NCBI GenBank assembly: GCA_000002445.1
Contig: CH464491.1
Location: forward strand, 3,872,001 to 3,936,000
DNA from: Trypanosoma brucei
Taxonomy: Eukaryota
Reading direction: 5' to 3'
DNA length: 64,000 nucleotides
Below, piece after piece: positions 193 to 23,717 of this stretch; position 1 is the first letter of the stretch, and the number at the start of each line of letters is the position of its first letter. The translations under genes and the position numbers were made by a program. Under the pieces are notes generated by a model, which saw nothing but the letters and a program-made list of their open reading frames with translations, was not told the DNA's origin and made no database searches.

Positions 193-2652
193 TCACTTGT
201 GGTGTTTCCACGTCGCACAGTACAGTGCAAGCTCCAAGACGGATGGGTTAGACGCCGAAAGGGCTTTGCCATTATTAACCATGCGTTGTAATTCTTTCCA
301 CTTCTTCCACTTTGTCTCAGCCTCCGCAACGTTGGGAAGTGACGAGGAGAAATGCAGTGCCCCGGGATGAACAGTTACCATACGGGGGGAGACATTTATC
401 ATGCGCAATTGAGAGAACTTCTTCACGCGACTCGCAGCAACATAAATGATATGGTTACAGGGAAAGAACCCCTTGCAGTCTAGCAGTATAGAATGATCCA
501 GAGTGAGTCCTTGCGTCTTGTGTACAGTAAATGCATAGGCAGGTACGAGGGGCATTGTGACGACACGTGCAGTACAAAACACTCGGTCTTGCAGATCCGG
601 TAGCGGAAGGGATAACCAAGGTATAGCCACATCCTTTCCGTCAGCGTCCATCCGCACAATGGGAACAATAACGTCGTCATAGTTGACAACGTCAAGCGCC
701 TGTTCCTTCCCATTGCCGCCGTATGAATTTTCTGATGACCCGGCCGAACTGTCACTACTAACCACTGGTCTCCGTGAAAGAGAGGCGTACACTTTCCGCG
801 AAAGTTGGGTTCTGATACCTTTGGGAAATAAATGCCGAGATTTATTTACAGGTTGAAAGCCGATGACGGTACCGGTAGAGCCGTTAACGTACTCATTGCT
901 TAAGTTTCGCAGTAGTATTACCCTACAACCGACCTTTAGTCTCTTGCTTTGGAGTACATTATCACTCTCTATCACCTTCGAGTATGCCTGCTTCAGGGAG
1001 GCGCGCAGAAAAGTACTGAGGGAGTTCTTATGTTTCACTTCAAACAGCACCCTACCAAAAAACCTTCGAGCGGATTTACTTTCGGGCGTGGTACCGTAAT
1101 AACTACGCTCCCATTCTGCTTTCATTTTAGCCACTGGATAGAGACAATCGTACTGCTTACTCACACAAAAGTGTACGTAGACTTTCAGATAGGGTTGTCT
1201 TGAACTATAAGGAGGTGCTACTACAGAAGTGGCTATACCGGAGATGCCACACCGCGTGCATATCTGTCCCACAAACTTCTTCACTTCCCGTTGCCATCTT
1301 CGGGAGGACCTCATCTTCTCTAGGAAGTGCAACACCACCACATCATTACAACCGTCGACGTTGTTTGCTCCTCGACTGTTCGGCGATGCATGACCTTTGG
1401 GGCCGGAAAGACCGGCTGACTCAACTATACTCCGAAATAGATGTTCCTCCCCGTCAAGTTCAAGCATTTTACTTTCATTAAACGCCGCCACAGATCGGCG
1501 GGTGGGATAGAGTTGGATGGCGTTAGGATCTTCCGGATTAACCAACGCAGACCGCATCATGCGACGAGTGAGAACACCTTGACGGAGCTTGTTGAGGTCA
1601 TTCAGAAATGCGGTGTCACCATGCCGCTTAACTTCGCAAAGTTGAAGGTGAAGCAAACAGGTTAAGAAGAGAGGGCTCTCGAAGATTAGACCACTGCTTG
1701 TCCGCTGACGCTCACCTACACAAATATTTTTCACCGCCGACATAATATGTCCCTGGTCTGTGACAGCAGCTGTAGAGCTTACGTCGCTTCTATTTTGTCC
1801 TGCTGTATTCTCGGTGGTTTCGTCCCCTCGGTAACCAATTTTGTTGCCTGCATCACCACCGCCATCTTGAGAAGTACAATTCTCAGTGCTATGCATTAGT
1901 TGCATGAAGTCTCCGCATAATATAACTTGAATGCCACCAAATGGAAGGTGAGGTATCCTTCCAGGTGCCCCGCGGGCGGCAATATCCAGCCCCTCCAAAT
2001 GTCTAGCGTGTAAAAGCGATACTTCATCCACAACAATAACGTCCACTTTGGCAAGAAGACTCTTGCTGTAGCGAAGGATCGAGACGGCACATGATTCGTT
2101 TGTCTCACTGTTACCAACGGAGGTAACTCGTACTCCAAATGTGCTGTGAAAAGTGCTTCCCCCAATGTTGAGTGCAGCTATTCCGGTAGATGCCGTTACG
2201 ACAACGTCAAGGTCCTTCGCCCTTAACGCTGTCACAATACTCTGGATCATATATGACTTACCGACACCAGCACCACCACCAATGAAAAGCGGAGCTCCAT
2301 CAAGGACAAGTGTGAGAGCCCTCCGCTTCTCCTCATTGAGACCGAGTGACGAAAAAGCTGACTCATCACCGCTTGATTTTTCCTTTTCCTGAAGCCCCAG
2401 GTCGTTGTGGCCAGCGCTAGACGCCTGCCGACAGGTCTTCGTGTCTCTTTCCTTGATTTCGTTGACTTCTGCAGCCCCACAACAGGAAGTACTCTCCGGT
2501 GCAGGGGAAAGCTGCCCCCCTTTTTCACCTTCTGCAGCAACGGTCCAAGCAGAAACACCTTTCGCAAGGCGGGATTGCCGTCCTTCTCGCCCCGGTGCAA
2601 AAAGCAGTCTTCCATACGTTAGCAATAGAGTCCTGGTGGAGTTGAGGAGCAT
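193..2652 (-). CDS. PIF1-family 5'-3' DNA helicase (P-loop NTPase)
   Basis: 819-aa ORF. Walker A 'GGGAGVGKSYMIQSIVTALRAKDLDVVVTASTGIAALNIGGSTFHSTFG', Walker B 'VIVVDEVSLL' and a PIF1-like C-terminal region 'AFTVHKTQGLTLD', as in Pif1/RRM3 helicases. Trypanosomatids are known to carry multiple PIF1 paralogues. Confidence 0.85.
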   Translation of the reverse strand: MLLNSTRTLLLTYGRLLFAPGREGRQSRLAKGVSAWTVAAEGEKGGQLSPAPESTSCCGAAEVNEIKERDTKTCRQASSAGHNDLGLQEKEKSSGDESAFSSLGLNEEKRRALTLVLDGAPLFIGGGAGVGKSYMIQSIVTALRAKDLDVVVTASTGIAALNIGGSTFHSTFGVRVTSVGNSETNESCAVSILRYSKSLLAKVDVIVVDEVSLLHARHLEGLDIAARGAPGRIPHLPFGGIQVILCGDFMQLMHSTENCTSQDGGGDAGNKIGYRGDETTENTAGQNRSDVSSTAAVTDQGHIMSAVKNICVGERQRTSSGLIFESPLFLTCLLHLQLCEVKRHGDTAFLNDLNKLRQGVLTRRMMRSALVNPEDPNAIQLYPTRRSVAAFNESKMLELDGEEHLFRSIVESAGLSGPKGHASPNSRGANNVDGCNDVVVLHFLEKMRSSRRWQREVKKFVGQICTRCGISGIATSVVAPPYSSRQPYLKVYVHFCVSKQYDCLYPVAKMKAEWERSYYGTTPESKSARRFFGRVLFEVKHKNSLSTFLRASLKQAYSKVIESDNVLQSKRLKVGCRVILLRNLSNEYVNGSTGTVIGFQPVNKSRHLFPKGIRTQLSRKVYASLSRRPVVSSDSSAGSSENSYGGNGKEQALDVVNYDDVIVPIVRMDADGKDVAIPWLSLPLPDLQDRVFCTARVVTMPLVPAYAFTVHKTQGLTLDHSILLDCKGFFPCNHIIYVAASRVKKFSQLRMINVSPRMVTVHPGALHFSSSLPNVAEAETKWKKWKELQRMVNNGKALSASNPSVLELALYCATWKHHK

Positions 2653-8308: not shown

Positions 8309-8500
8309 TATTCGTACTTCAGTGCCCTGCTAAAACAGAAGGCCAGTATGTGTGCGAAGACCAGGGTGGTATCCTGCCGCCACTCGAGGAATATTACGTT
8401 CCAACGTCGCTGTTCGTGTGCCGGGAGGTAACGCACATGCTTCCGTAGTAATAATAGGTAGACAAATAGAAATGGCGACCGTGAAAAAAAAAAAATAATA

Positions 8501-8540: not shown

Positions 8541-8962
8541 CATACAATTCGAGCAAGGGCAGTGGCGCCACCACTTCAAGATAGTAAAAATGGAAGACAA
8601 ATTAGAGACTGCTCACGTAGGTTAACACCCACGGGCAGGTACAGCATTATTTTTTTAATCTACTACTTTTTTAAAAAGGTAGAGTTGTGAACTTGAGCTG
8701 CGCCAATATGAGAGCATGCGATGAGCACATACGCGCAACGCACGTCTCGTTATGCGCATTGTGGATTCACTGCTTCTGTACAGCAAAATCACACTTCAGT
8801 ACGCCCTTCAAATTTTCCCATGCATTTTCGAGATATTGTTCAACTGTTCAGCTCTGCAGAACTACTCCCTTCAAATGAAACGTCCTCCTTCTTCTTTTAT
8901 ATAACAAAAGGTTTTCAAACCAATTGTGCAAGTCTATAAATATCAGCAGTGCCCGGTGGCCG

Positions 8963-8981
8963 ATATATATATATATATATA
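8963..8981. repeat. (TA)n microsatellite
   Basis: 'atatatatatatatatata', intergenic. Confidence 0.9.
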
Positions 8982-9055
8982 ACTGTGATGACAAAAACAA
9001 AGTGCCCGGGTTAGTGGGAGGTAATGGCCCACACACACATCTAGACTCATCACCA

Positions 9056-9727
9056 TTACATCTTCCTTACACATGCCATTTTGGCAAAGAAATCGGATAA
9101 CTTCATTTGACTTTTTGGAGGTGTTGGAATGCCCCCTTGAGCACGTAAGGGAGATTTGCCAGTTGGCGTTGTATTTCCCACTCCACTAATCCCACTTTTT
9201 ATGGCATCCCCTTGTGGAAAGAGTTCGCAAACTGTGGGAACCGCAGAAGTGGAGTCATTGTTGTTTTCCATAATGTCTGTAGAGCTGGGATGGTCAGGGG
9301 AACCGGAAAATGGGCTCAGAAGTGCAGACGAGCCATGCTGTGATGACGGCGACACATCACCCTTTACCACCTTCGGCACGGTAGGTGGATTATTTCCCCT
9401 GAAACATGTGGAAGGTGTTTGTTCCTGTGATGTGGTGGCTGTTGTGGTAGTGGTGGTGGCACCACTGGGTGATGGGTGGTCTAACCGGTCGACGAGGTTC
9501 ACCTTCACGACCCCAGCGGCAAATGCAAATGCAGCCATTTTCTCCACACCATCTCCACCACGGCGTGCAATATTCAACTCCGCCGCTGAACTATTACCCT
9601 CTGCGATGACATTTGTTCTTTCGACTGGCACCCCATTATGCAACATCGAATCTGCCATAACAGGTTCAGTGCGCATAACCTTCGTTGGTGGATTGTATTC
9701 ATCGTCGTCATCCAAAAGCAAACTCAT
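9056..9727 (-). CDS. hypothetical Ser/Thr/Pro-rich protein with C-terminal PIP-box-like motif
   Basis: 223-aa ORF whose C-terminus 'KSQMKLSDFFAKMACVRKM' matches the PCNA-interacting peptide consensus Q-x-x-[LIM]-x-x-[FY]-[FY] with flanking basic residues. The remainder is low-complexity, including a poly-Thr run. Confidence 0.45.
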   Translation of the reverse strand: MSLLLDDDDEYNPPTKVMRTEPVMADSMLHNGVPVERTNVIAEGNSSAAELNIARRGGDGVEKMAAFAFAAGVVKVNLVDRLDHPSPSGATTTTTTATTSQEQTPSTCFRGNNPPTVPKVVKGDVSPSSQHGSSALLSPFSGSPDHPSSTDIMENNNDSTSAVPTVCELFPQGDAIKSGISGVGNTTPTGKSPLRAQGGIPTPPKSQMKLSDFFAKMACVRKM

Positions 9728-10573
9728 CTTCGGCCCTCTCAGCTTTCACACGTCCTTTTGTGTTTCCGTAAAAGTTTTCAGCCCTTGAACAAACGCAAAT
9801 TCTTTAAAATATAAAAATACATGTACATAAAGTGGTAAAAAAATAACAATGAAAATAGAGGGGAACATGGAAATGTTACAATGAGCATTGAAACACAGTA
9901 CAAGTAGTCACCAGAGTGTAGTGTATCGGAGGAGGTGCGATATATTCAAAAAAAATGTACACATATCTTTTTAAAAGGTACAATAAAGGTACAAATACGG
10001 GGGCACCGCCGAATGGGCACATAGTCCCGCAGTAGGAACCAAATCATGTCCTTCAAGGGAAGGGTTAGCTGCAGGGGTATAGCAAGAAAGAAAACGGGAA
10101 AAAATACAAGGCAACATAATGAAAACAACACAAACAAAATCAACCGCTCCTTTAAATAGAGATACAAAAATGCCTTTCCTTTCCCCCTTCCCTCACTACA
10201 TATTTCCTCTCATTTCCTCCCTGAACCCCAACAAAACCTCGTTTGGTAGTTGCATGCGCTCCCTGTGACGAAATAAAATCAGTGACAATACAACATTATG
10301 ATACATCACTTGACAGGTACAAAAAAATAATGGACAGACGAAGACGACTGTAACGGATCGGTTATCTCCAAATAAAAGTACAACGTATACGCATATATAT
10401 ATAATATTTTACTTAGCCACGCCGTATAACTGCGTACATAGATGGACGAGAGACAAATGTTCATGTGCCCACCTCTGTCTGCATATATTCACGCTTATGC
10501 AAAACTAAGAGCACACGTGACGATGTTTCCCTGAAAATACAAAAAAAAATCAAGAAAGACAGTCACTTCCTAC

Positions 10574-11326
10574 CTAGAAATGCAGAGGTAAACTTTCGGT
10601 AGGAGAGTCAGCTGGCGTCAATTCAAGTGTTCTTTCAAACCCCTTAAATACCGGTGGAGTAGCAAAATGGACATCACCCGCGGAGCGGCGCGTCGCTGAC
10701 CGCAGAGCGCTCGACCCATCTTCAGAAAACATGGTTGTTTTACCATCAGTTGCACAGCTTGGGCTCTGTAGCATCATATCCGAATAATCAGGTGTACCAC
10801 TTTGTGGGGTCCGAGCTCTAAGATAAGTGGCGTAGAGACAATCCCTTTCGGCTGGGTCGATTGGCATCACTACTCGTGGAGATACTCCACCGCTTTGGGG
10901 ACTGCAATACCGCGACTGCTGACGCTGTTGAGGTTTTCGTTGTTGCCCCGAAGTTGTGTTGCTAAATGCATTTAAACGCCCGCTTGCTGCTTTCTCTGAC
11001 TTCTTGGATTTCAAGTTTGCTCCGGTATCTTTGTCATCTGGCTGAATGAGTTGCAGTCCCTTCGGAAGTCGGGGGTCGACGCGAACCTTCAGTTGACTGC
11101 GGGTGGTGTTGTTAAACTTCGCTACAGCCTGCATTACTAGTTTAGCGTAGCACCGGTTGAACTGCTCACCATTCTGCCGATTAAGCGCTAATTCAACCAT
11201 ATCCGGTGCTATGAAGAACCGCTTCTGCAGAATAAAATTGAGTTTGTTTCGGTGACCGAACAGTTCCCCCGGGGTACGCGGCAACTTGCGAAGCCCTTCG
11301 AATAAGTCATCTTTCTTCCACTGCAT
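10574..11326 (-). CDS. hypothetical protein (about 250 aa)
   Basis: Minus-strand ORF. The ORF-track N-terminus 'MEKIKKKRKTKGKKKK' is translation of a pyrimidine tract, so the start is placed at the internal Met 'MQWKKDDLFEGL' (about 11326). No recognisable domain. Confidence 0.4.
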   Translation of the reverse strand: MQWKKDDLFEGLRKLPRTPGELFGHRNKLNFILQKRFFIAPDMVELALNRQNGEQFNRCYAKLVMQAVAKFNNTTRSQLKVRVDPRLPKGLQLIQPDDKDTGANLKSKKSEKAASGRLNAFSNTTSGQQRKPQQRQQSRYCSPQSGGVSPRVVMPIDPAERDCLYATYLRARTPQSGTPDYSDMMLQSPSCATDGKTTMFSEDGSSALRSATRRSAGDVHFATPPVFKGFERTLELTPADSPTESLPLHF

Positions 11327-15422: not shown

Positions 15423-17360
15423 TTAGTTTGCGCACTGTTGGCGCACAAGTGCAAAGCTCGACGCCATTCTTCTAATATATGCCGGCGTTCGTGATATCTT
15501 TGGACGAAAGGTGGCTTGTTCAGCCATTTCTCGCTCCTTCTCACGTTCTTTTTGCTCCCTCATTTCCGCCAATCTCTCTTTCTGTCGTTTTAGATTCTCC
15601 GTGTATGCTACGAGGTGTTTGCTACTCAAGTAAGACTCCACGTTCCGGTTCCGCTCATCGTTGAGTGTTGGTTTAAATGGGTGCTTCATCTCCGCTGAGC
15701 GCGCCTTCTCCTGTGCAGCCTTTATTGAATTCCTTCGACGCACGCTATCAAGAAACAACACCTCAACACCAGAAGGTTTTGCACCACTAGAACCAGGAGC
15801 TGTTTCTGGTTTAAATGTGCACGGGTCAACATAAGGGGAACGGTGCTTTTTCACTGCCGCCGCGAGCGTAGGAGCGCTTTTCACGTTCCCAACTTCAGAT
15901 TCATTTCTCGCAAGTAGCCTCTTCGCGATCCGCACGCTGGTGTTAGTGATCTGCGGTTTGAACGATGGACGCTGAGACTCCTCAATTTGTCGCACAGTGC
16001 GTGTGCGGTTTGCTAAATGCTTGTCCTGGCGTAGCAAAAAACTATCGAAGCTCGCGCCCCTACTACTACCGCTGTCGTGATGACCTCCATTATACGAAGT
16101 TGTGCGGTTGAATGTGTTTTCATGCCTTACAGTCATAAGTTTACGCGCTAAAGGGGATTGATATTTTGTGTCGACGAATGCAGCTTTTTGTTCGTCTTTT
16201 GAGCCCAGTATATTAAACATAAACAATTCGAACGAATCCGCGCCTCCCTTTGTCGACGTCGCACCTCCATACATTTCACGCAACTGATCTTTTTCAGCTA
16301 GCAGAAGTTCCCGTACGCTACTGTTGTTGCCACCTTCCGAGCGTTTTCCCGCGAAGTTACGTTGGTACAACCGCTGAAAAACGCTGTCTCTGCTTTGCGA
16401 GCTTTTCTGAAACATGGAAACTGATGCGCGGGACAGTTGTGGGCGAAAGGTACATTCCTGTAGTTCTTTTGCCTCCCATTTCTCTTTAGTGCGCTGCCGG
16501 CGCTCCATGAGTGAATCCCCTCGGTGCTGTAGTGACGATGAACCTCCCCCGTGTTCCTCATCCGAGTCAAACACGTCAGAAACTTCTATGGTCGTTTCGT
16601 CTCGCATCAAATATTCGTTCCAACGAGTGGCTGCACGTGTAAGTGCCCCATTTTTACCAGATAAAGAGGCAGCCTCCGGTAGATTTTTTTCCCTTTTTGG
16701 CGTCATCACAAACGCTATCTGACTGCCATCTTCATGTGACCGAGAAATGCGTTCCATCTCCTGATTCTGATCTCGCCCCTCTTCCTCTTCCATTTCACCA
16801 TAAACATTCCGGAATTGTCGAAGGAATGAAGGATCCGTTCGCCCTATGCGCTCCAACTCTATGTTGAGTTGCTCAACATCCATGTGAAGAGAATCCGACC
16901 ACTTTGTCTCATTCACTCGTGCACTCCCTTTGTGAAGAGAAGTTTCGTCCAATGACGGCTCCTCCCTTTTCCTTACCGGAGAACCCTTTCCCAGCTTCCG
17001 CACTTGCACCTGACGCGATTGCTCGGTAGGATAGATGTAATGCCCGGCGCTCGTGCCATGAAATGTGTCAAACCTGCTGCCACCTTGGGAACATATCTCA
17101 CTGGCAGTTTCTGTAATTCCTTGATTGCCATAACTCCACGTGTGTTCGTTGAATTCGTCGAAACCCGATTGCTCACTCCAACTGCTGTCACTGCGCGTAG
17201 GTTCCTTGTACTGCCCCTCTGCCTTAATCCGAAGGTATGTATCCAGTAAACTGTCATCTTCGTAGTCACTCATGGTTCCCTCTGATCGTGCAGTCAGCTC
17301 ACGCTGCCTCTCAAGTGCGGCAACCGCCTCCATGATCAAGTTTTCGCGGTCCGCAAACAT
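15423..17360 (-). CDS. hypothetical protein with C-terminal coiled-coil/Glu-Lys-rich region (about 645 aa)
   Basis: Long minus-strand ORF. The start is moved to the internal Met 'MFADRENLIM' at 17360, because the upstream 'MCVCVFPSKEK' is a translated CA-repeat/polyY tract. C-terminus 'KRQKERLAEMREQKEREKEREMAEQ'. Confidence 0.5.
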   Translation of the reverse strand: MFADRENLIMEAVAALERQRELTARSEGTMSDYEDDSLLDTYLRIKAEGQYKEPTRSDSSWSEQSGFDEFNEHTWSYGNQGITETASEICSQGGSRFDTFHGTSAGHYIYPTEQSRQVQVRKLGKGSPVRKREEPSLDETSLHKGSARVNETKWSDSLHMDVEQLNIELERIGRTDPSFLRQFRNVYGEMEEEEGRDQNQEMERISRSHEDGSQIAFVMTPKREKNLPEAASLSGKNGALTRAATRWNEYLMRDETTIEVSDVFDSDEEHGGGSSSLQHRGDSLMERRQRTKEKWEAKELQECTFRPQLSRASVSMFQKSSQSRDSVFQRLYQRNFAGKRSEGGNNSSVRELLLAEKDQLREMYGGATSTKGGADSFELFMFNILGSKDEQKAAFVDTKYQSPLARKLMTVRHENTFNRTTSYNGGHHDSGSSRGASFDSFLLRQDKHLANRTRTVRQIEESQRPSFKPQITNTSVRIAKRLLARNESEVGNVKSAPTLAAAVKKHRSPYVDPCTFKPETAPGSSGAKPSGVEVLFLDSVRRRNSIKAAQEKARSAEMKHPFKPTLNDERNRNVESYLSSKHLVAYTENLKRQKERLAEMREQKEREKEREMAEQATFRPKISRTPAYIRRMASSFALVRQQCAN

Positions 17361-17379
17361 CACTAGGAGCGATCTCTTT

Positions 17380-17445
17380 TCCTTAGAGGGGAAAACACAC
17401 ACACACAAAAAAAAAGTAAACTGGAAGGGGAGGATAAAATGCGGG
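17380..17445 (-). promoter_or_regulatory. polypyrimidine tract plus AG upstream of the 15423..17360 gene; candidate SL trans-splice acceptor
   Basis: + strand 'acacacacacaaaaaaaaagtaaactggaaggggaggataaaatg' is a CA/polyY run on the minus strand, directly upstream of the inferred ATG. Confidence 0.35.
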
Positions 17446-21713: not shown

Positions 21714-23717
21714 TCACGCAGCGGCGGCGATATTAGTAAAATGAATGACGCCACATACCACTCCATTCACCTCAGACGCACCACGACACACAACACGCTC
21801 GCTATCTTCAACCGTAACCTCGGCCACACGTAGCTCAAATCGCGGCGTCGTTCGTCGGCACCACACTTCCTGGTTCACGACCATAACACCAGATGCGGCT
21901 GCTGGATCATCAAGGGCTTCCTCATTATGCTGATGCGTTACGAAGGCAAAACGCGGCCGTGTTGAGGGAAGGAACAACAAATGGGGCATCCACTCAACGG
22001 TAGAATCCTCCTCCCCGCATTTACTAAAGTTAGTAGGGTACACCAACTGGTCATCCTCCTCCTGTTTCACTCGCTTAGCCTCTTGCTTCGTATCGCCATC
22101 ACTATCCAAAGTATTCAAGACACTCGCTGCACTAAGTAGTCGAACTGCATCCCAAGTTAGAGCAGATGTGCTGATGTCCTCCTTGGGTAAACGTCCTTCT
22201 GGGTTAGGCGGAAGAAAGTCCAAACGAAGTGCCCCAATATGTTGTAGATCATGCTTCACCGCTGGAAATTCATAAAGTGGGGCATACAAACGACTTTGGA
22301 CGAGAGCTTCCACAACGCGACGGAGGCTTCCCGACTCCGTGGGCCATCGCTCTACCATCTTCTCTCGCATGTCACCGACAACATCGTCGTTGCACACGCC
22401 AATGTGAATGCCGTTTACAGCGATGCGGCATGGGTTCGAACGCACCCAAATGCTATCGGTACTCTCCAAGCTGTACATTGTGATAGGGATAGCCGGGATT
22501 TGCGTAACGTCATCTCTGTGTGGCACCAGAACCACCTTCATTCGATCCCGAGTGCGTGGGTTTTTGCTGGAAGCATAGTACTTCTCCATAGTCTCTTCTA
22601 TGGTATCCATGTACGAAGAAAGTAGCTCGTCGAACGTAAGTTGCAGCAACTTCAGTGAGTCCTTCTCGTACTCCTCGAATTCCCTTACAAGAGGCCCACC
22701 AATGATGAGGAGATCAGCGCCTCGGTGAAGAGCGTTGAGAGTTACACTGCTTAATATGTGGCCCGTCTCGCGCCGAGGGAACGGCCCACTACAGAAATGT
22801 ATGCGCGTAGGGATCGCGAAGTGTGACAACGCCGTGGGTATAGGCCTTTCGATTCCCCATGGGAACTGGGGACGTGAGGGAAGAATAAATCGACGAACAA
22901 GCACTGCAGTTAGCGCCCCCGACGAACTGCGCTTAAACGGCTCACCAACAATACCGACAACCATACCCGAATAAAGGCCCGTGAACTGCGGCGTTAAACG
23001 TGTGTAAAGAGATAACCTCGACACGGAGTGAGGGTTGTTCCTGTGATATGATGCGCCTTCCCCGCCACTTGCATCAGTTGCGCCTCCGGTTGCACCGCCA
23101 TCGTCATCATCCTCATTCTCTATTCGAAGGAAACCGCCAGTAGGAGCGACATCTTTTGTCATGGCCCGGATCGGAGCAGCGTACGTGTCATCATCATCAA
23201 CATTCACTATGGGGAAAAACTCCCATGGGAGAAGAAGTTCTTCCTCAGTTGCTAAGGGGCTGCAGAGTTGCGTCAGAATACCTCGGGCGCGATACAACGA
23301 CCCTTCGTTCGGCTTCTGCAACGAAGGAACGTCGTCCCTTTCCTCTTGTTTAATGTCGGTAGGATTTTCTTCTTCACCTTTCAATATCACTCCCCCACCA
23401 TCCGCCTCCCACAGGTTAATTTTTGAGAGCATGTAGCGATAGTAACCTGCTAAACGACGACGCGTGGTGTTGCTACCATAGTCCTGACGGTTACAATACA
23501 TTGTGTCCCTAAAATTAACGCTGTTCCGTGCATCCACAACACCCCCGTCGTTGATTTGCGACCCGGCGGTATAGTCCCTGACGATGCGAGCAGCCGGGTG
23601 GTGAATACCTAGCAACAAATCAAGGTTAGCAGCAGCCTTCCATCGCGTTGATTGTTGCATTATCTGTAGAAAATGATTGACAGTGTGAACCGAAATGTTT
23701 TTTATTTTACTTCCCAC
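21714..23717 (-). CDS. DNA polymerase B-subunit family protein (best guess: DNA polymerase alpha subunit B)
   Basis: 667 aa. 'ADLLIIGGPLV' (cf. POLA2 'PDLLILMGPFLD'), 'VVLVPHRDDV', 'SNPCRIAVNGIHIGVCNDDVV' (cf. Pol alpha B 'NPCTLEINGVVFGLTSTDLL' and Pol epsilon B 'PNPCRVQY') and 'RRVVEALVQSRLYAPLYEFP' (cf. 'SRILKHILTQRSYYPLYPP') indicate the calcineurin-like phosphoesterase fold of replicative polymerase B-subunits. The alpha versus epsilon assignment is uncertain. Confidence 0.55.
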   Translation of the reverse strand: MGSKIKNISVHTVNHFLQIMQQSTRWKAAANLDLLLGIHHPAARIVRDYTAGSQINDGGVVDARNSVNFRDTMYCNRQDYGSNTTRRRLAGYYRYMLSKINLWEADGGGVILKGEEENPTDIKQEERDDVPSLQKPNEGSLYRARGILTQLCSPLATEEELLLPWEFFPIVNVDDDDTYAAPIRAMTKDVAPTGGFLRIENEDDDDGGATGGATDASGGEGASYHRNNPHSVSRLSLYTRLTPQFTGLYSGMVVGIVGEPFKRSSSGALTAVLVRRFILPSRPQFPWGIERPIPTALSHFAIPTRIHFCSGPFPRRETGHILSSVTLNALHRGADLLIIGGPLVREFEEYEKDSLKLLQLTFDELLSSYMDTIEETMEKYYASSKNPRTRDRMKVVLVPHRDDVTQIPAIPITMYSLESTDSIWVRSNPCRIAVNGIHIGVCNDDVVGDMREKMVERWPTESGSLRRVVEALVQSRLYAPLYEFPAVKHDLQHIGALRLDFLPPNPEGRLPKEDISTSALTWDAVRLLSAASVLNTLDSDGDTKQEAKRVKQEEDDQLVYPTNFSKCGEEDSTVEWMPHLLFLPSTRPRFAFVTHQHNEEALDDPAAASGVMVVNQEVWCRRTTPRFELRVAEVTVEDSERVVCRGASEVNGVVCGVIHFTNIAAAA

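What the first reader, a model, noticed from the sequence alone, without database searches (positions are those of the whole stretch)
9056..9727. Small low-complexity protein ending in a Cdt1/p21-like PIP-box (PIP-degron-like) motif
C-terminal 'QMKLSDFFAKMACVRK' fits Q-x-x-[LIM]-x-x-F-F. Its acidic residue before FF and basic residues after it resemble the PIP-degrons of Cdt1 ('QRRVTDFFARRR') and p21. The rest of the protein is Ser/Thr/Pro-rich and disordered-looking, including a T10 tract. This could be a PCNA-binding regulator, or a substrate of PCNA-coupled proteolysis, in an organism whose replication-licensing control is poorly understood.
Basis: partly seen in the sequence, partly recalled or inferred. 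Interest (0 to 1): 0.55.

Follow-up and report, generated by a model that had tools for sequence, protein, structure and literature searches.

The report
Conserved S-phase PIP-box protein of trypanosomes
This is a real, expressed Trypanosoma brucei gene (Tb927.11.14830) for a small disordered nuclear protein that accumulates in S phase and ends in a PCNA-binding (PIP-box) motif invariant across trypanosomatids, so it is probably an uncharacterised sliding-clamp partner and not a protein destroyed through PCNA.

Summary
The minus-strand ORF 9056..9727 encodes a 223-aa protein with a canonical PIP box (QMKLSDFF, aa 207-214) nine residues from the C-terminus. The "T10 tract" is really T6-A-T2.

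The window is T. brucei chromosome 11 and the gene is Tb927.11.14830 (UniProt Q381V2, "hypothetical protein, conserved"). One such motif in the window is about what chance gives, so the case rests on conservation. All 24 orthologues found (Trypanosoma, Leishmania, Leptomonas, Novymonas and a deeper syntenic lineage) keep Q-x-x-L-S-D-F-F at the C-terminus. It is the most conserved 8-mer (0.96 column identity against 0.32-0.37 in the linkers), and codon changes there are mostly synonymous. Two further islands are conserved: N-terminal LLLDD(D/E) and central RGG(D/N)G..KM..F.F. The rest is predicted disordered.

Published data show that the mRNA peaks in late G1, the protein rises 5-fold to a late-S peak, pT187 and pT189 are cell-cycle regulated, and the curated localisation is nucleoplasm.

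The PIP-degron reading fails. Position +4 is never basic, position 5 is Ser and not Thr, CDT2 is reported absent from Trypanosoma, and the protein rises in S phase.

Best reading: a kinetoplastid-specific PCNA-tethered adaptor or regulator. PCNA binding itself is untested.

The parts
9056..9727 (-). Coding sequence of Tb927.11.14830 (UniProt Q381V2): 223 aa, 23.3 kDa, pI 5.6, stop codon at 9056..9058. The protein is predicted to be intrinsically disordered.
   Evidence: ORF and translation. 100% identical to T. brucei / T. equiperdum 'hypothetical protein, conserved'. The ID, mass (23.288 kDa) and peptide match Benz & Urbaniak 2019. AlphaFold2 mean pLDDT 53.
9086..9109 (-). Canonical PIP box QMKLSDFF (aa 207-214), the presumed PCNA-docking motif.
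   Evidence: Present in 24/24 orthologues as Q[MLT][KNR]LSDFF. It is the most conserved 8-mer (0.96). In T. brucei vs L. donovani, 8 of 13 codons differ synonymously and 1 non-synonymously. AlphaFold2 predicts a local helix at 210-218 with pLDDT 74-82.
9059..9085 (-). Conserved post-PIP tail AKMACVRKM (family consensus x-K-M-A-C-[KT]-[RK]). Position +4 is Ala, not basic.
   Evidence: M217 and C219 are at least 90% conserved. Position +4 is A/S/T in all 24 orthologues. The tail is missing in the deepest orthologue, which ends ...FFAM.
9701..9727 (-). N-terminal acidic-hydrophobic motif MSLLLDDDD (family consensus M-x-L-L-L-D-D-[DE]-[DE]), a candidate partner-binding short linear motif.
   Evidence: Mean column identity 0.81, against 0.36 in the following linker. 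Absent from the deep-branching orthologue in L003.
9521..9562 (-). Central conserved motif RGGDGVEKMAAFAF (family consensus [RK]-G-G-[DN]-G-x-x-K-M-x-x-[FL]-x-F), a candidate second partner-binding element.
   Evidence: G57, G58, G60, K63 and M64 are invariant in 24 sequences. AlphaFold2 predicts a strand-helix-strand at 51-79 with pLDDT 65-69. The motif is retained in the deep-branching orthologue.
9371..9391 (-). Minor conserved island NPPTVPK (family consensus P-x-T-V-x-K, or TQPK[IV]VS).
   Evidence: T116 and K119 are invariant in alignment A3; the block mean is 0.56.
9161..9169 (-). Thr187 (a Thr-Pro site) and Thr189, phosphorylated in vivo in a cell-cycle-dependent way.
   Evidence: Benz & Urbaniak 2019 phosphoproteome: pT187 log2 0, -0.80, 2.11, 2.43, 3.14, -0.08; pT189 log2 0, 0.35, 2.32, 2.93, 2.92, 2.87 (cluster Phos-02). 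Positions checked.
9141..9785 (+). It is not a gene.
   Evidence: All 23 long ORFs that are not nested in a longer one lie on the minus strand. The antisense frame is interrupted in T. cruzi and L. donovani. Antisense translations of the PIP block are not conserved and contain stops.

Best explanation
Tb927.11.14830 encodes a kinetoplastid-specific, intrinsically disordered nuclear protein that is made for S phase.

Shown:
- The gene is real and conserved in synteny.
- The C-terminal PIP box is under strong protein-level purifying selection.
- The mRNA peaks in late G1 with replication genes, and the protein peaks in late S phase with a profile close to that of a PCNA phosphopeptide.
- The curated localisation is nucleoplasmic.

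Inferred:
- The invariant C-terminal Q-M-K-L-S-D-F-F box inserts into the hydrophobic pocket of the PCNA sliding clamp, as canonical PIP boxes do. The conserved K-M-A-C-K-R tail may run along the interdomain connecting loop.
- This tethers the flexible chain to DNA-loaded PCNA.
- The conserved central motif (RGG[DN]G..KM..F.F) and, in most lineages, the N-terminal LLLDD(D/E) motif bind one or more further partners.
- The protein would then work as a clamp-bound adaptor or regulator at replication forks, in the manner of PAF15/PCLAF or the disordered PIP-bearing tails of POLD3 and RNase H2B.
- Its fall after S phase implies turnover, but not through a canonical PCNA-coupled degron.
For: Motif and coordinates.

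Conservation: an exhaustive HMMER search and two profile searches gave 24 orthologue clusters, all with the PIP box 2-10 aa from the C-terminus. Column identity is 0.96 in the PIP box against 0.32-0.37 in the linkers. Substitutions in the PIP codons are mostly synonymous.

Synteny: the gene lies between the CPC2 and 712-aa orthologues in T. cruzi, L. donovani and a deeper lineage.

Disorder: AlphaFold2 predicts disorder with local structure only at the conserved islands.

Expression:
- The mRNA (old ID Tb11.01.6460) is in the late-G1 cluster of Archer 2011 (-0.16, +0.71, -0.06, -0.49), and that paper reports that late-G1 mRNAs encode many DNA replication proteins.
- Protein log2 relative to early G1: 0.65, 2.15, 2.32, 1.64, 1.20. 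It is flagged 'mRNA CCR', and the curated GO terms are nucleoplasm and nuclear lumen.
- PCNA pS211 follows almost the same curve: 1.22, 2.32, 2.15, 1.71, 1.30.

TbPCNA binds canonical PIP-box peptides in GST pull-downs (PMC5053586).
Against: - No binding to PCNA has been shown for this protein, and I could not model the complex.
- A QxxLxxFF pattern arises by chance about once per 16,000 residues by my estimate (one was found in 17,139).
- FF-containing PIP-like motifs can also serve other partners, such as Rev1 or Mlh1 (established knowledge, not tested here).
- The curated localisation also lists cytoplasm and ciliary plasm.
- The protein was not flagged as cell-cycle regulated in the second proteome, Crozier 2018 (column blank; header).
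- The partners of the other two motifs are unknown, so 'adaptor' is an inference from architecture.
Confidence: 0.62

Rival explanations
1. PIP-degron substrate. The motif recruits a CRL4-type ligase to the protein once it is bound to chromatin-loaded PCNA, so the protein is destroyed in S phase or after DNA damage, like Cdt1, p21 or Set8.
For: - The PIP box has Asp at position 6 and a Ser at position 5 that resembles Thr.
- Lys sits at +2 and Arg/Lys at +6 to +8.
- T. brucei has CUL4 and DDB1 (PMC5241021, abstract; PMC11763709).
- Protein abundance oscillates and must fall about 5-fold between late S and the next early G1.
Against: - Position +4 is A/S/T in 24/24 orthologues and position 5 is never Thr. 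Both features define the degron (Havens & Walter definition, established knowledge).
- CDT2 is listed as absent in Trypanosoma (PMC11763709 Table 5).
- The protein rises 4.4-fold in early S and 5-fold in late S, when a degron substrate should vanish.
Confidence: 0.06
2. A minimal, highly diverged third subunit of DNA polymerase delta (POLD3/Pol32/Cdc27-like), or of another polymerase. Its disordered chain would link the polymerase to PCNA through the extreme C-terminal PIP box.
For: - The architecture is similar: a long disordered chain ending in QxxLxxFF followed by basic residues within 10 aa of the C-terminus (POLD3 architecture from established knowledge).
- In the T. brucei proteome tables I could read, only the Pol delta catalytic subunit and subunit 2 are annotated.
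- The mRNA is co-regulated with replication genes.
Against: - No member hits the Pfam Cdc27/POLD3 family, even at E up to 10.
- AlphaFold2 finds no N-terminal winged-helix domain.
- The protein oscillates 5-fold, while the Pol delta catalytic subunit and subunit 2 stay within log2 +/-0.6.
Confidence: 0.1
3. The conserved C-terminal FF motif is a docking site for a partner other than PCNA (for example a Rev1- or Mlh1-type PIP-like interaction, or an unknown kinetoplastid partner), or it is part of a nuclear-targeting or stability element. The match to the PIP consensus would then be coincidental.
For: - The pattern frequency in the window is at chance level.
- Conservation extends beyond the PIP consensus: the invariant S-D pair and the nearly invariant K209 and M-A-C tail. 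This could reflect a different interface.
- There are no interaction data.
Against: - All eight consensus positions, including the Gln, are invariant in 24 lineages.
- The motif sits at a disordered C-terminus, as in many proven PCNA partners.
- The S-phase timing, curated nuclear location and PCNA-like abundance curve fit PCNA.
Confidence: 0.15
4. A Cip/Kip-like CDK inhibitor analogue, in which a cyclin-docking RxL motif plus a PIP box couple CDK control to PCNA.
For: Six orthologues (T. cruzi, T. rangeli, T. conorhini, T. grayi, T. theileri, T. melophagium) carry V-S-R-x-L-F about 30 aa upstream of the PIP box. No CKI is known in trypanosomes (my knowledge).
Against: - The RxLF is absent in T. 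brucei (CELF), T. congolense, all Leishmaniinae and the deep lineage.
- There is no Pfam CDI hit.
- The motif order differs from the Cip/Kip kinase-inhibitory domain.
Confidence: 0.03

Closest known systems
PAF15 / PCLAF (p15PAF), the metazoan PCNA-associated factor
   Same: Both are small, fully disordered nuclear proteins with one canonical PIP box. Both have mRNA and protein tied to S phase, fall after S/G2, and carry short conserved motifs besides the PIP box.
   Different: There is no sequence relationship (no Pfam PAF hit). The PIP box is at the extreme C-terminus, not central. No KEN box is present. The family is restricted to kinetoplastids.
POLD3 / Pol32 / Cdc27, the third subunit of DNA polymerase delta
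   Same: Both have a long disordered chain ending in QxxLxxFF followed by basic residues within about 10 aa of the C-terminus.
   Different: This protein lacks the N-terminal winged-helix domain that binds POLD2. It is much smaller. It oscillates 5-fold, while the T. brucei Pol delta subunits are flat.
PIP-degron proteins (Cdt1, p21, Set8, Spd1)
   Same: All have a PIP box with an acidic residue at position 6 and a hydroxyl residue at position 5, in a disordered context, and their abundance is cell-cycle regulated.
   Different: There is no basic residue at +4 and position 5 is Ser, not Thr. CDT2 is reported absent from Trypanosoma. This protein accumulates in S phase rather than being destroyed then.
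RNase H2 subunit B
   Same: It also has a C-terminal PIP box on a flexible tail that tethers a partner enzyme to PCNA.
   Different: T. brucei RH2B is a different gene on chromosome 1 (Tb427.1.4220; PMC8576533). No fold or Pfam match was found here.

Membership tests
Canonical PIP-box PCNA-interacting proteins | Motif Q-x-x-[LIMV]-x-x-[FYW]-[FYW] | tested here: met
   QMKLSDFF at aa 207-214. Q, L, F and F are invariant in 24/24 orthologues.
Canonical PIP-box PCNA-interacting proteins | The motif lies in an accessible, disordered region or terminus | tested here: met
   It lies 9 aa from the C-terminus. AlphaFold2 gives a mean pLDDT of 53, with only a short helix at 210-218.
Canonical PIP-box PCNA-interacting proteins | Physical, motif-dependent binding to PCNA | not testable with these tools
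   No interaction data were found. PCNA could not be submitted for complex prediction. TbPCNA does bind other canonical PIP peptides (PMC5053586).
PIP degron (CRL4-Cdt2 substrates) | Thr-Asp at PIP positions 5-6 | tested here: not met
   The pair is Ser-Asp in 24/24 orthologues, so Asp is met and Thr is not.
PIP degron (CRL4-Cdt2 substrates) | Basic residue four positions after the PIP box (B+4) | tested here: not met
   Position +4 is A, S or T in 24/24. The basic residues are at +2 and at +6 to +8.
PIP degron (CRL4-Cdt2 substrates) | The substrate receptor CDT2 is present in the organism | not tested
   Literature only: CDT2 is listed as absent in Trypanosoma, while CUL4, DDB1 and ROC1 are present (PMC11763709 Table 5; PMC5241021).
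PIP degron (CRL4-Cdt2 substrates) | Protein destroyed in S phase, when PCNA is on chromatin | tested here: not met
   Published SILAC time course: log2 +2.15 in early S and +2.32 in late S relative to early G1.
POLD3 / Pol32 / Cdc27 | N-terminal winged-helix domain (Pfam CDC27, PF09507) that binds the B subunit | tested here: not met
   No Pfam hit in any of 18 members at E up to 10. AlphaFold2 finds no folded N-terminal domain.
POLD3 / Pol32 / Cdc27 | Extreme C-terminal PIP box followed by basic residues | tested here: met
   The C-terminus reads ...QMKLSDFFAKMACVRKM, with family consensus ...FFSKMACKR.
POLD3 / Pol32 / Cdc27 | Stoichiometric association with the Pol delta catalytic and B subunits | not testable with these tools
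   There is only indirect counter-evidence: Pol delta subunits are flat over the cell cycle while this protein changes 5-fold.
Cip/Kip CDK inhibitors | Kinase-inhibitory domain (Pfam CDI) with an RxL cyclin-docking motif | tested here: not met
   No Pfam hit. RxLF is present in only 6 of 24 orthologues and absent in T. brucei.
PAF15 / PCLAF | Sequence family (Pfam PAF) with a KEN box and a central PIP box | tested here: not met
   No Pfam hit and no KEN box in any orthologue. The resemblance is functional and architectural only.
RNase H2 subunit B | Being the RH2B subunit of the organism | tested here: not met
   T. brucei RH2B and RH2C are chromosome 1 genes (Tb427.1.4220 and Tb427.1.4730; PMC8576533). 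This gene is on chromosome 11.

The most novel reading that the evidence does not exclude
The protein is a kinetoplastid-invented, S-phase-specific component of the PCNA hub with no counterpart elsewhere. Through its central and N-terminal motifs it would recruit a lineage-specific or 'missing' replication factor to the clamp. Candidates are a stand-in for the unidentified third Pol delta subunit, or a PAF15- or p21-like brake on clamp partners. In that case it would be needed for normal S phase in these parasites.
Probability: 0.2. Interest if true: 0.65.

Novelty: new member of a known kind. Interest (0 to 1): 0.42.

Why it matters
Kinetoplastid nuclear replication lacks many recognisable factors. 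Cdt1, Cdc6 and most ORC subunits could not be found (PMC5814967), and parasite-specific replisome proteins are being sought as drug targets (PMC12539117).

This gene is annotated only as "hypothetical protein, conserved". It nevertheless combines four features:
- an invariant canonical PIP box;
- restriction to kinetoplastids;
- curated nuclear localisation;
- a 5-fold late-S abundance peak, in a study where only 32 of 3,619 proteins changed more than 3-fold.

That makes it a cheap, well-defined candidate for a lineage-specific PCNA partner. One peptide-binding assay and one tagged cell line would settle it.

Tried and rejected
- Pfam scans of the protein, the antisense ORF and all 18 then-known family members found no family, even at E up to 10.
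- PDB sequence searches gave only chance-level hits. The full-family profile matched lentiviral integrase 'KGGLGTSPMDIFIF' against the central motif at E 0.24-0.54. The C-terminal profile matched folded proteins containing KLSDFFSKM at E about 1. Neither was pursued.
- Literature searches by accession (Q381V2, XP_829541 and others) found nothing. Searches for PCNA proximity labelling, POLD3 in T. brucei and PIP box plus kinetoplastid found nothing on this gene.
- The last paper search was wasted, because the term 'PNT2' matched a prostate cell line.
- Two kinetoplastid replication reviews say nothing on PCNA partners.
- RNase H2B was considered and rejected, because it is on chromosome 1.
- S-phase RNA motifs in the gene's own flanks: no CAUAGAA element was found, and the three UUGUACC copies upstream belong to the 3' region of the neighbouring CPC2 gene.
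- The Tb927.11.14830 row was not in the held part of the EIF4E2 preprint tables.
- No fold search was run, because the model is too low in confidence to give meaningful matches. A complex prediction with PCNA was not possible, because PCNA is neither in the window nor among the retrieved proteins.

Full report
**What is in the sequence**

The window has about 47% G+C, and all 23 long ORFs that are not nested in a longer one lie on the minus strand. This is the layout of a trypanosomatid polycistronic unit.

The minus-strand ORF 9056..9727 starts with ATG and encodes 223 aa ending ...PPKSQMKLSDFFAKMACVRKM. QMKLSDFF (aa 207-214, window 9086..9109) fits the strict PIP-box pattern. The protein is rich in Ser, Pro, Thr and Gly.

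A strict PIP pattern occurs once in the 47 ORFs of 100 aa or more in the window (17,139 residues). By my rough estimate that is about the chance rate, so the motif by itself proves nothing.

**Identity**

The protein is 100% identical to T. brucei TREU927 XP_829541.1 / EAN80429.1 / UniProt Q381V2 and to a T. equiperdum protein. Both are annotated "hypothetical protein, conserved" or "uncharacterized".

The supplementary tables of Benz & Urbaniak 2019 list Tb927.11.14830 with three matching details, each checked against the window:
- UniProt accession Q381V2;
- a mass of 23.288 kDa (the computed mass is 23,288 Da);
- the phosphopeptide QGDAIKSGISGVGNTTPTGKSPLRAQGGIPT, which is aa 172-202 here.

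The old ID is Tb11.01.6460. In Archer 2011 Table S3, the "DNA" genes Tb11.01.6420 and Tb11.01.6520 match the PIF1-like helicase (gene 1 in the window) and the polymerase B subunit (gene 11), counting in steps of 10. The gene upstream is Tb927.11.14840 / Tb11.01.6470, which is CPC2 = PNT2.

**Which strand is the gene?**

- The plus-strand frame (stop-to-stop 9141..9785) is antisense to the transcription unit.
- In T. cruzi and L. donovani the antisense frames of the orthologous locus are cut into pieces of 76-159 codons, while the sense frame stays open.
- In the 13 codons from Gln207 to Cys219, T. brucei and L. donovani differ at 8 codons synonymously and at only 1 non-synonymously. The antisense translations differ and contain stops.
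- Mass-spectrometry peptides match the minus-strand product.

The plus-strand ORF is incidental.

**Conservation**

- An exhaustive HMMER search of 1.84 billion cluster representatives found only seven clusters. Six are named Trypanosoma species and the seventh is an unnamed Logan assembly.
- Two profile searches added Leishmania, Leptomonas, Novymonas and unnamed assemblies, giving 24 sequences in alignment A3.
- Every one has Q[MLT][KNR]LSDFF 2-10 residues from the C-terminus.
- Column identity is 0.96 over the PIP box, 0.80 over PIP plus tail, 0.81 over the N-terminal M-x-LLLDD(D/E)(D/E) and 0.67 over the central [RK]GG[DN]G..KM..[FL].F. The three linkers score 0.32-0.37.
- The gene sits between the CPC2 orthologue and the 712-aa orthologue in T. 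cruzi (L002), L. donovani (L001) and a more divergent lineage with short intergenic regions (L003).
- The divergent orthologue keeps the central motif, the P-x-T-V-x-K island and the PIP box. It lacks the N-terminal LLLDD motif and the KMAC tail. The central motif plus the PIP box are therefore the ancestral core.

**Structure and family**

- AlphaFold2 on the 18-sequence alignment gives a mean pLDDT of 53 and pTM of 0.21. Only three regions rise above background: the N-terminus, a strand-helix-strand at 51-79 (pLDDT 65-69) and a helix at 210-218 (pLDDT 74-82).
- No Pfam family matches any member.
- PDB sequence searches give only chance-level hits.

The protein is a lineage-specific disordered chain carrying a few short conserved motifs.

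**Published experimental data on this gene**

- In Archer 2011 the transcript Tb11.01.6460 is in K-means cluster 4: early G1 -0.16, late G1 +0.71, S -0.06, G2/M -0.49. [quoted passage not shown]
- In Benz & Urbaniak 2019 the protein is one of 443 cell-cycle-regulated proteins. Log2 values relative to early G1 are 0.65 (late G1), 2.15 (early S), 2.32 (late S), 1.64 (early G2/M) and 1.20 (late G2/M). That is a 5-fold change, in a study where only 32 proteins exceeded 3-fold.
- The same tables flag it "mRNA CCR" and give curated GO components of nucleoplasm, nuclear lumen, cytoplasm and ciliary plasm.
- pT187 (a Thr-Pro site) and pT189 are cell-cycle regulated. pT189 falls in cluster Phos-02, which is enriched for CDK-type sites.
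- The PCNA phosphopeptide pS211 follows almost the same curve (1.22, 2.32, 2.15, 1.71, 1.30). The Pol delta catalytic subunit and subunit 2 stay within about +/-0.6.

**PIP degron?**

The degron is defined (established knowledge, Havens & Walter) by Thr-Asp at positions 5-6, a basic residue at +4, and recognition by CRL4-Cdt2 on chromatin-bound PCNA, which leads to destruction in S phase. This family fails on four counts:
- position 5 is Ser in 24/24 orthologues, and position +4 is A/S/T in 24/24;
- CDT2 is listed as absent in Trypanosoma, although CUL4, DDB1 and ROC1 exist;
- the protein accumulates through S phase;
- no KEN box and no conserved D-box is present either.

The degron reading is therefore not supported. 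The post-S decline still needs an explanation.

**Most likely mechanism**

This is inference from the anatomy and timing. The C-terminal PIP box docks on PCNA, and the flexible chain presents the central and N-terminal motifs to other partners. The protein would act as a clamp-tethered adaptor or regulator during S phase.

TbPCNA is known to bind canonical PIP peptides (PMC5053586). Binding of this particular peptide has not been tested, and I could not model the complex.

**Rivals**

- A minimal POLD3-like subunit. The C-terminal architecture is the same, but there is no winged-helix domain and the abundance pattern differs from Pol delta.
- A non-PCNA use of the FF motif.
- A CKI-like protein. 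An SRxLF motif exists in six stercorarian, T. theileri-group and T. grayi orthologues, but not in T. brucei or Leishmania.

**Novelty and verdict**

PIP-box proteins are a well-known kind. This family is unannotated, kinetoplastid-restricted and, as far as my searches reached, undescribed. It is a new member of a known kind.

It is a good, cheaply testable candidate for a parasite-specific PCNA partner. It gives no evidence for PCNA-coupled proteolysis or for licensing control.

Noticed in passing
window 10574..11326 (-), with motifs at 10316..10322, 9988..9994 and 9977..9983 (-): The gene immediately upstream is CPC2 (chromosomal passenger complex 2, Tb927.11.14840 = PNT2 / Tb11.01.6470). It is 250 aa from the ATG at 11326; the ORF list starts it at a GTG, giving 282 aa. 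Its 3' intergenic region carries three UUGUACCU copies, the PUF9 S-phase stabilisation motif. That is 3 of only 7 on the minus strand of the whole 64-kb window. This matches the 'TTGTACC x3' note in a Clayton-lab table.
   Followed up: yes
orthologues P0004, P0005, P0006, P0013, P0017, P0018 (about aa 174-197); T. brucei aa 166-170, window 9218..9232: Six Trypanosoma orthologues (T. cruzi, T. rangeli, T. conorhini, T. grayi, T. theileri, T. melophagium) carry V-S-R-x-L-F, an RxL-type cyclin-docking look-alike, about 30 aa before the PIP box. T. brucei has VCELF. T. congolense and the Leishmaniinae lack it.
   Followed up: partly
L003:3449-3955 (Logan SRR29272344): This is a deep-branching syntenic orthologue (168 aa) from an unnamed organism with very short intergenic regions (about 200 bp). 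It keeps the central motif and the PIP box but has no N-terminal LLLDD motif, and it ends two residues after FF. The organism was not identified.
   Followed up: partly
Published data, not in the window: The T. brucei PCNA phosphosite pS211 has almost the same cell-cycle curve as the abundance of this protein. Pol delta subunit 2 pT71 rises about 18-fold while its protein level stays flat.
   Followed up: no
window 193..2652 (-), 15423..17408 (-) and 21714..23717 (-): The same transcription unit holds a PIF1-like helicase (Tb11.01.6420) and a DNA polymerase alpha/epsilon B-subunit gene (Tb11.01.6520). Several nearby old IDs (Tb11.01.6380, 6490, 6570) appear beside Tb11.01.6460 in the gene lists of Archer 2011 Table S2. 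By step-10 numbering, 6490 would be the 661-aa ORF at 15423..17408. I did not test whether cell-cycle-regulated genes cluster here more than expected.
   Followed up: no
window 8960..8990, 9040..9052 and 8440..8480: The flanking intergenic regions contain (TA)n, (CA)n and (GT)n microsatellites and long T runs. These are typical trypanosome intergenic sequence and probably polypyrimidine or processing signals. They were not analysed.
   Followed up: no
aa 52-99 of the family profile (central motif); PDB 5t3a, 5m0r, 3hpg: The central motif rGGnGleKMdalaF aligns weakly (E 0.24-0.54) with 'KGGLGTSPMDIFIF' of lentiviral integrases. This is at chance level and I treated it as coincidence.
   Followed up: partly
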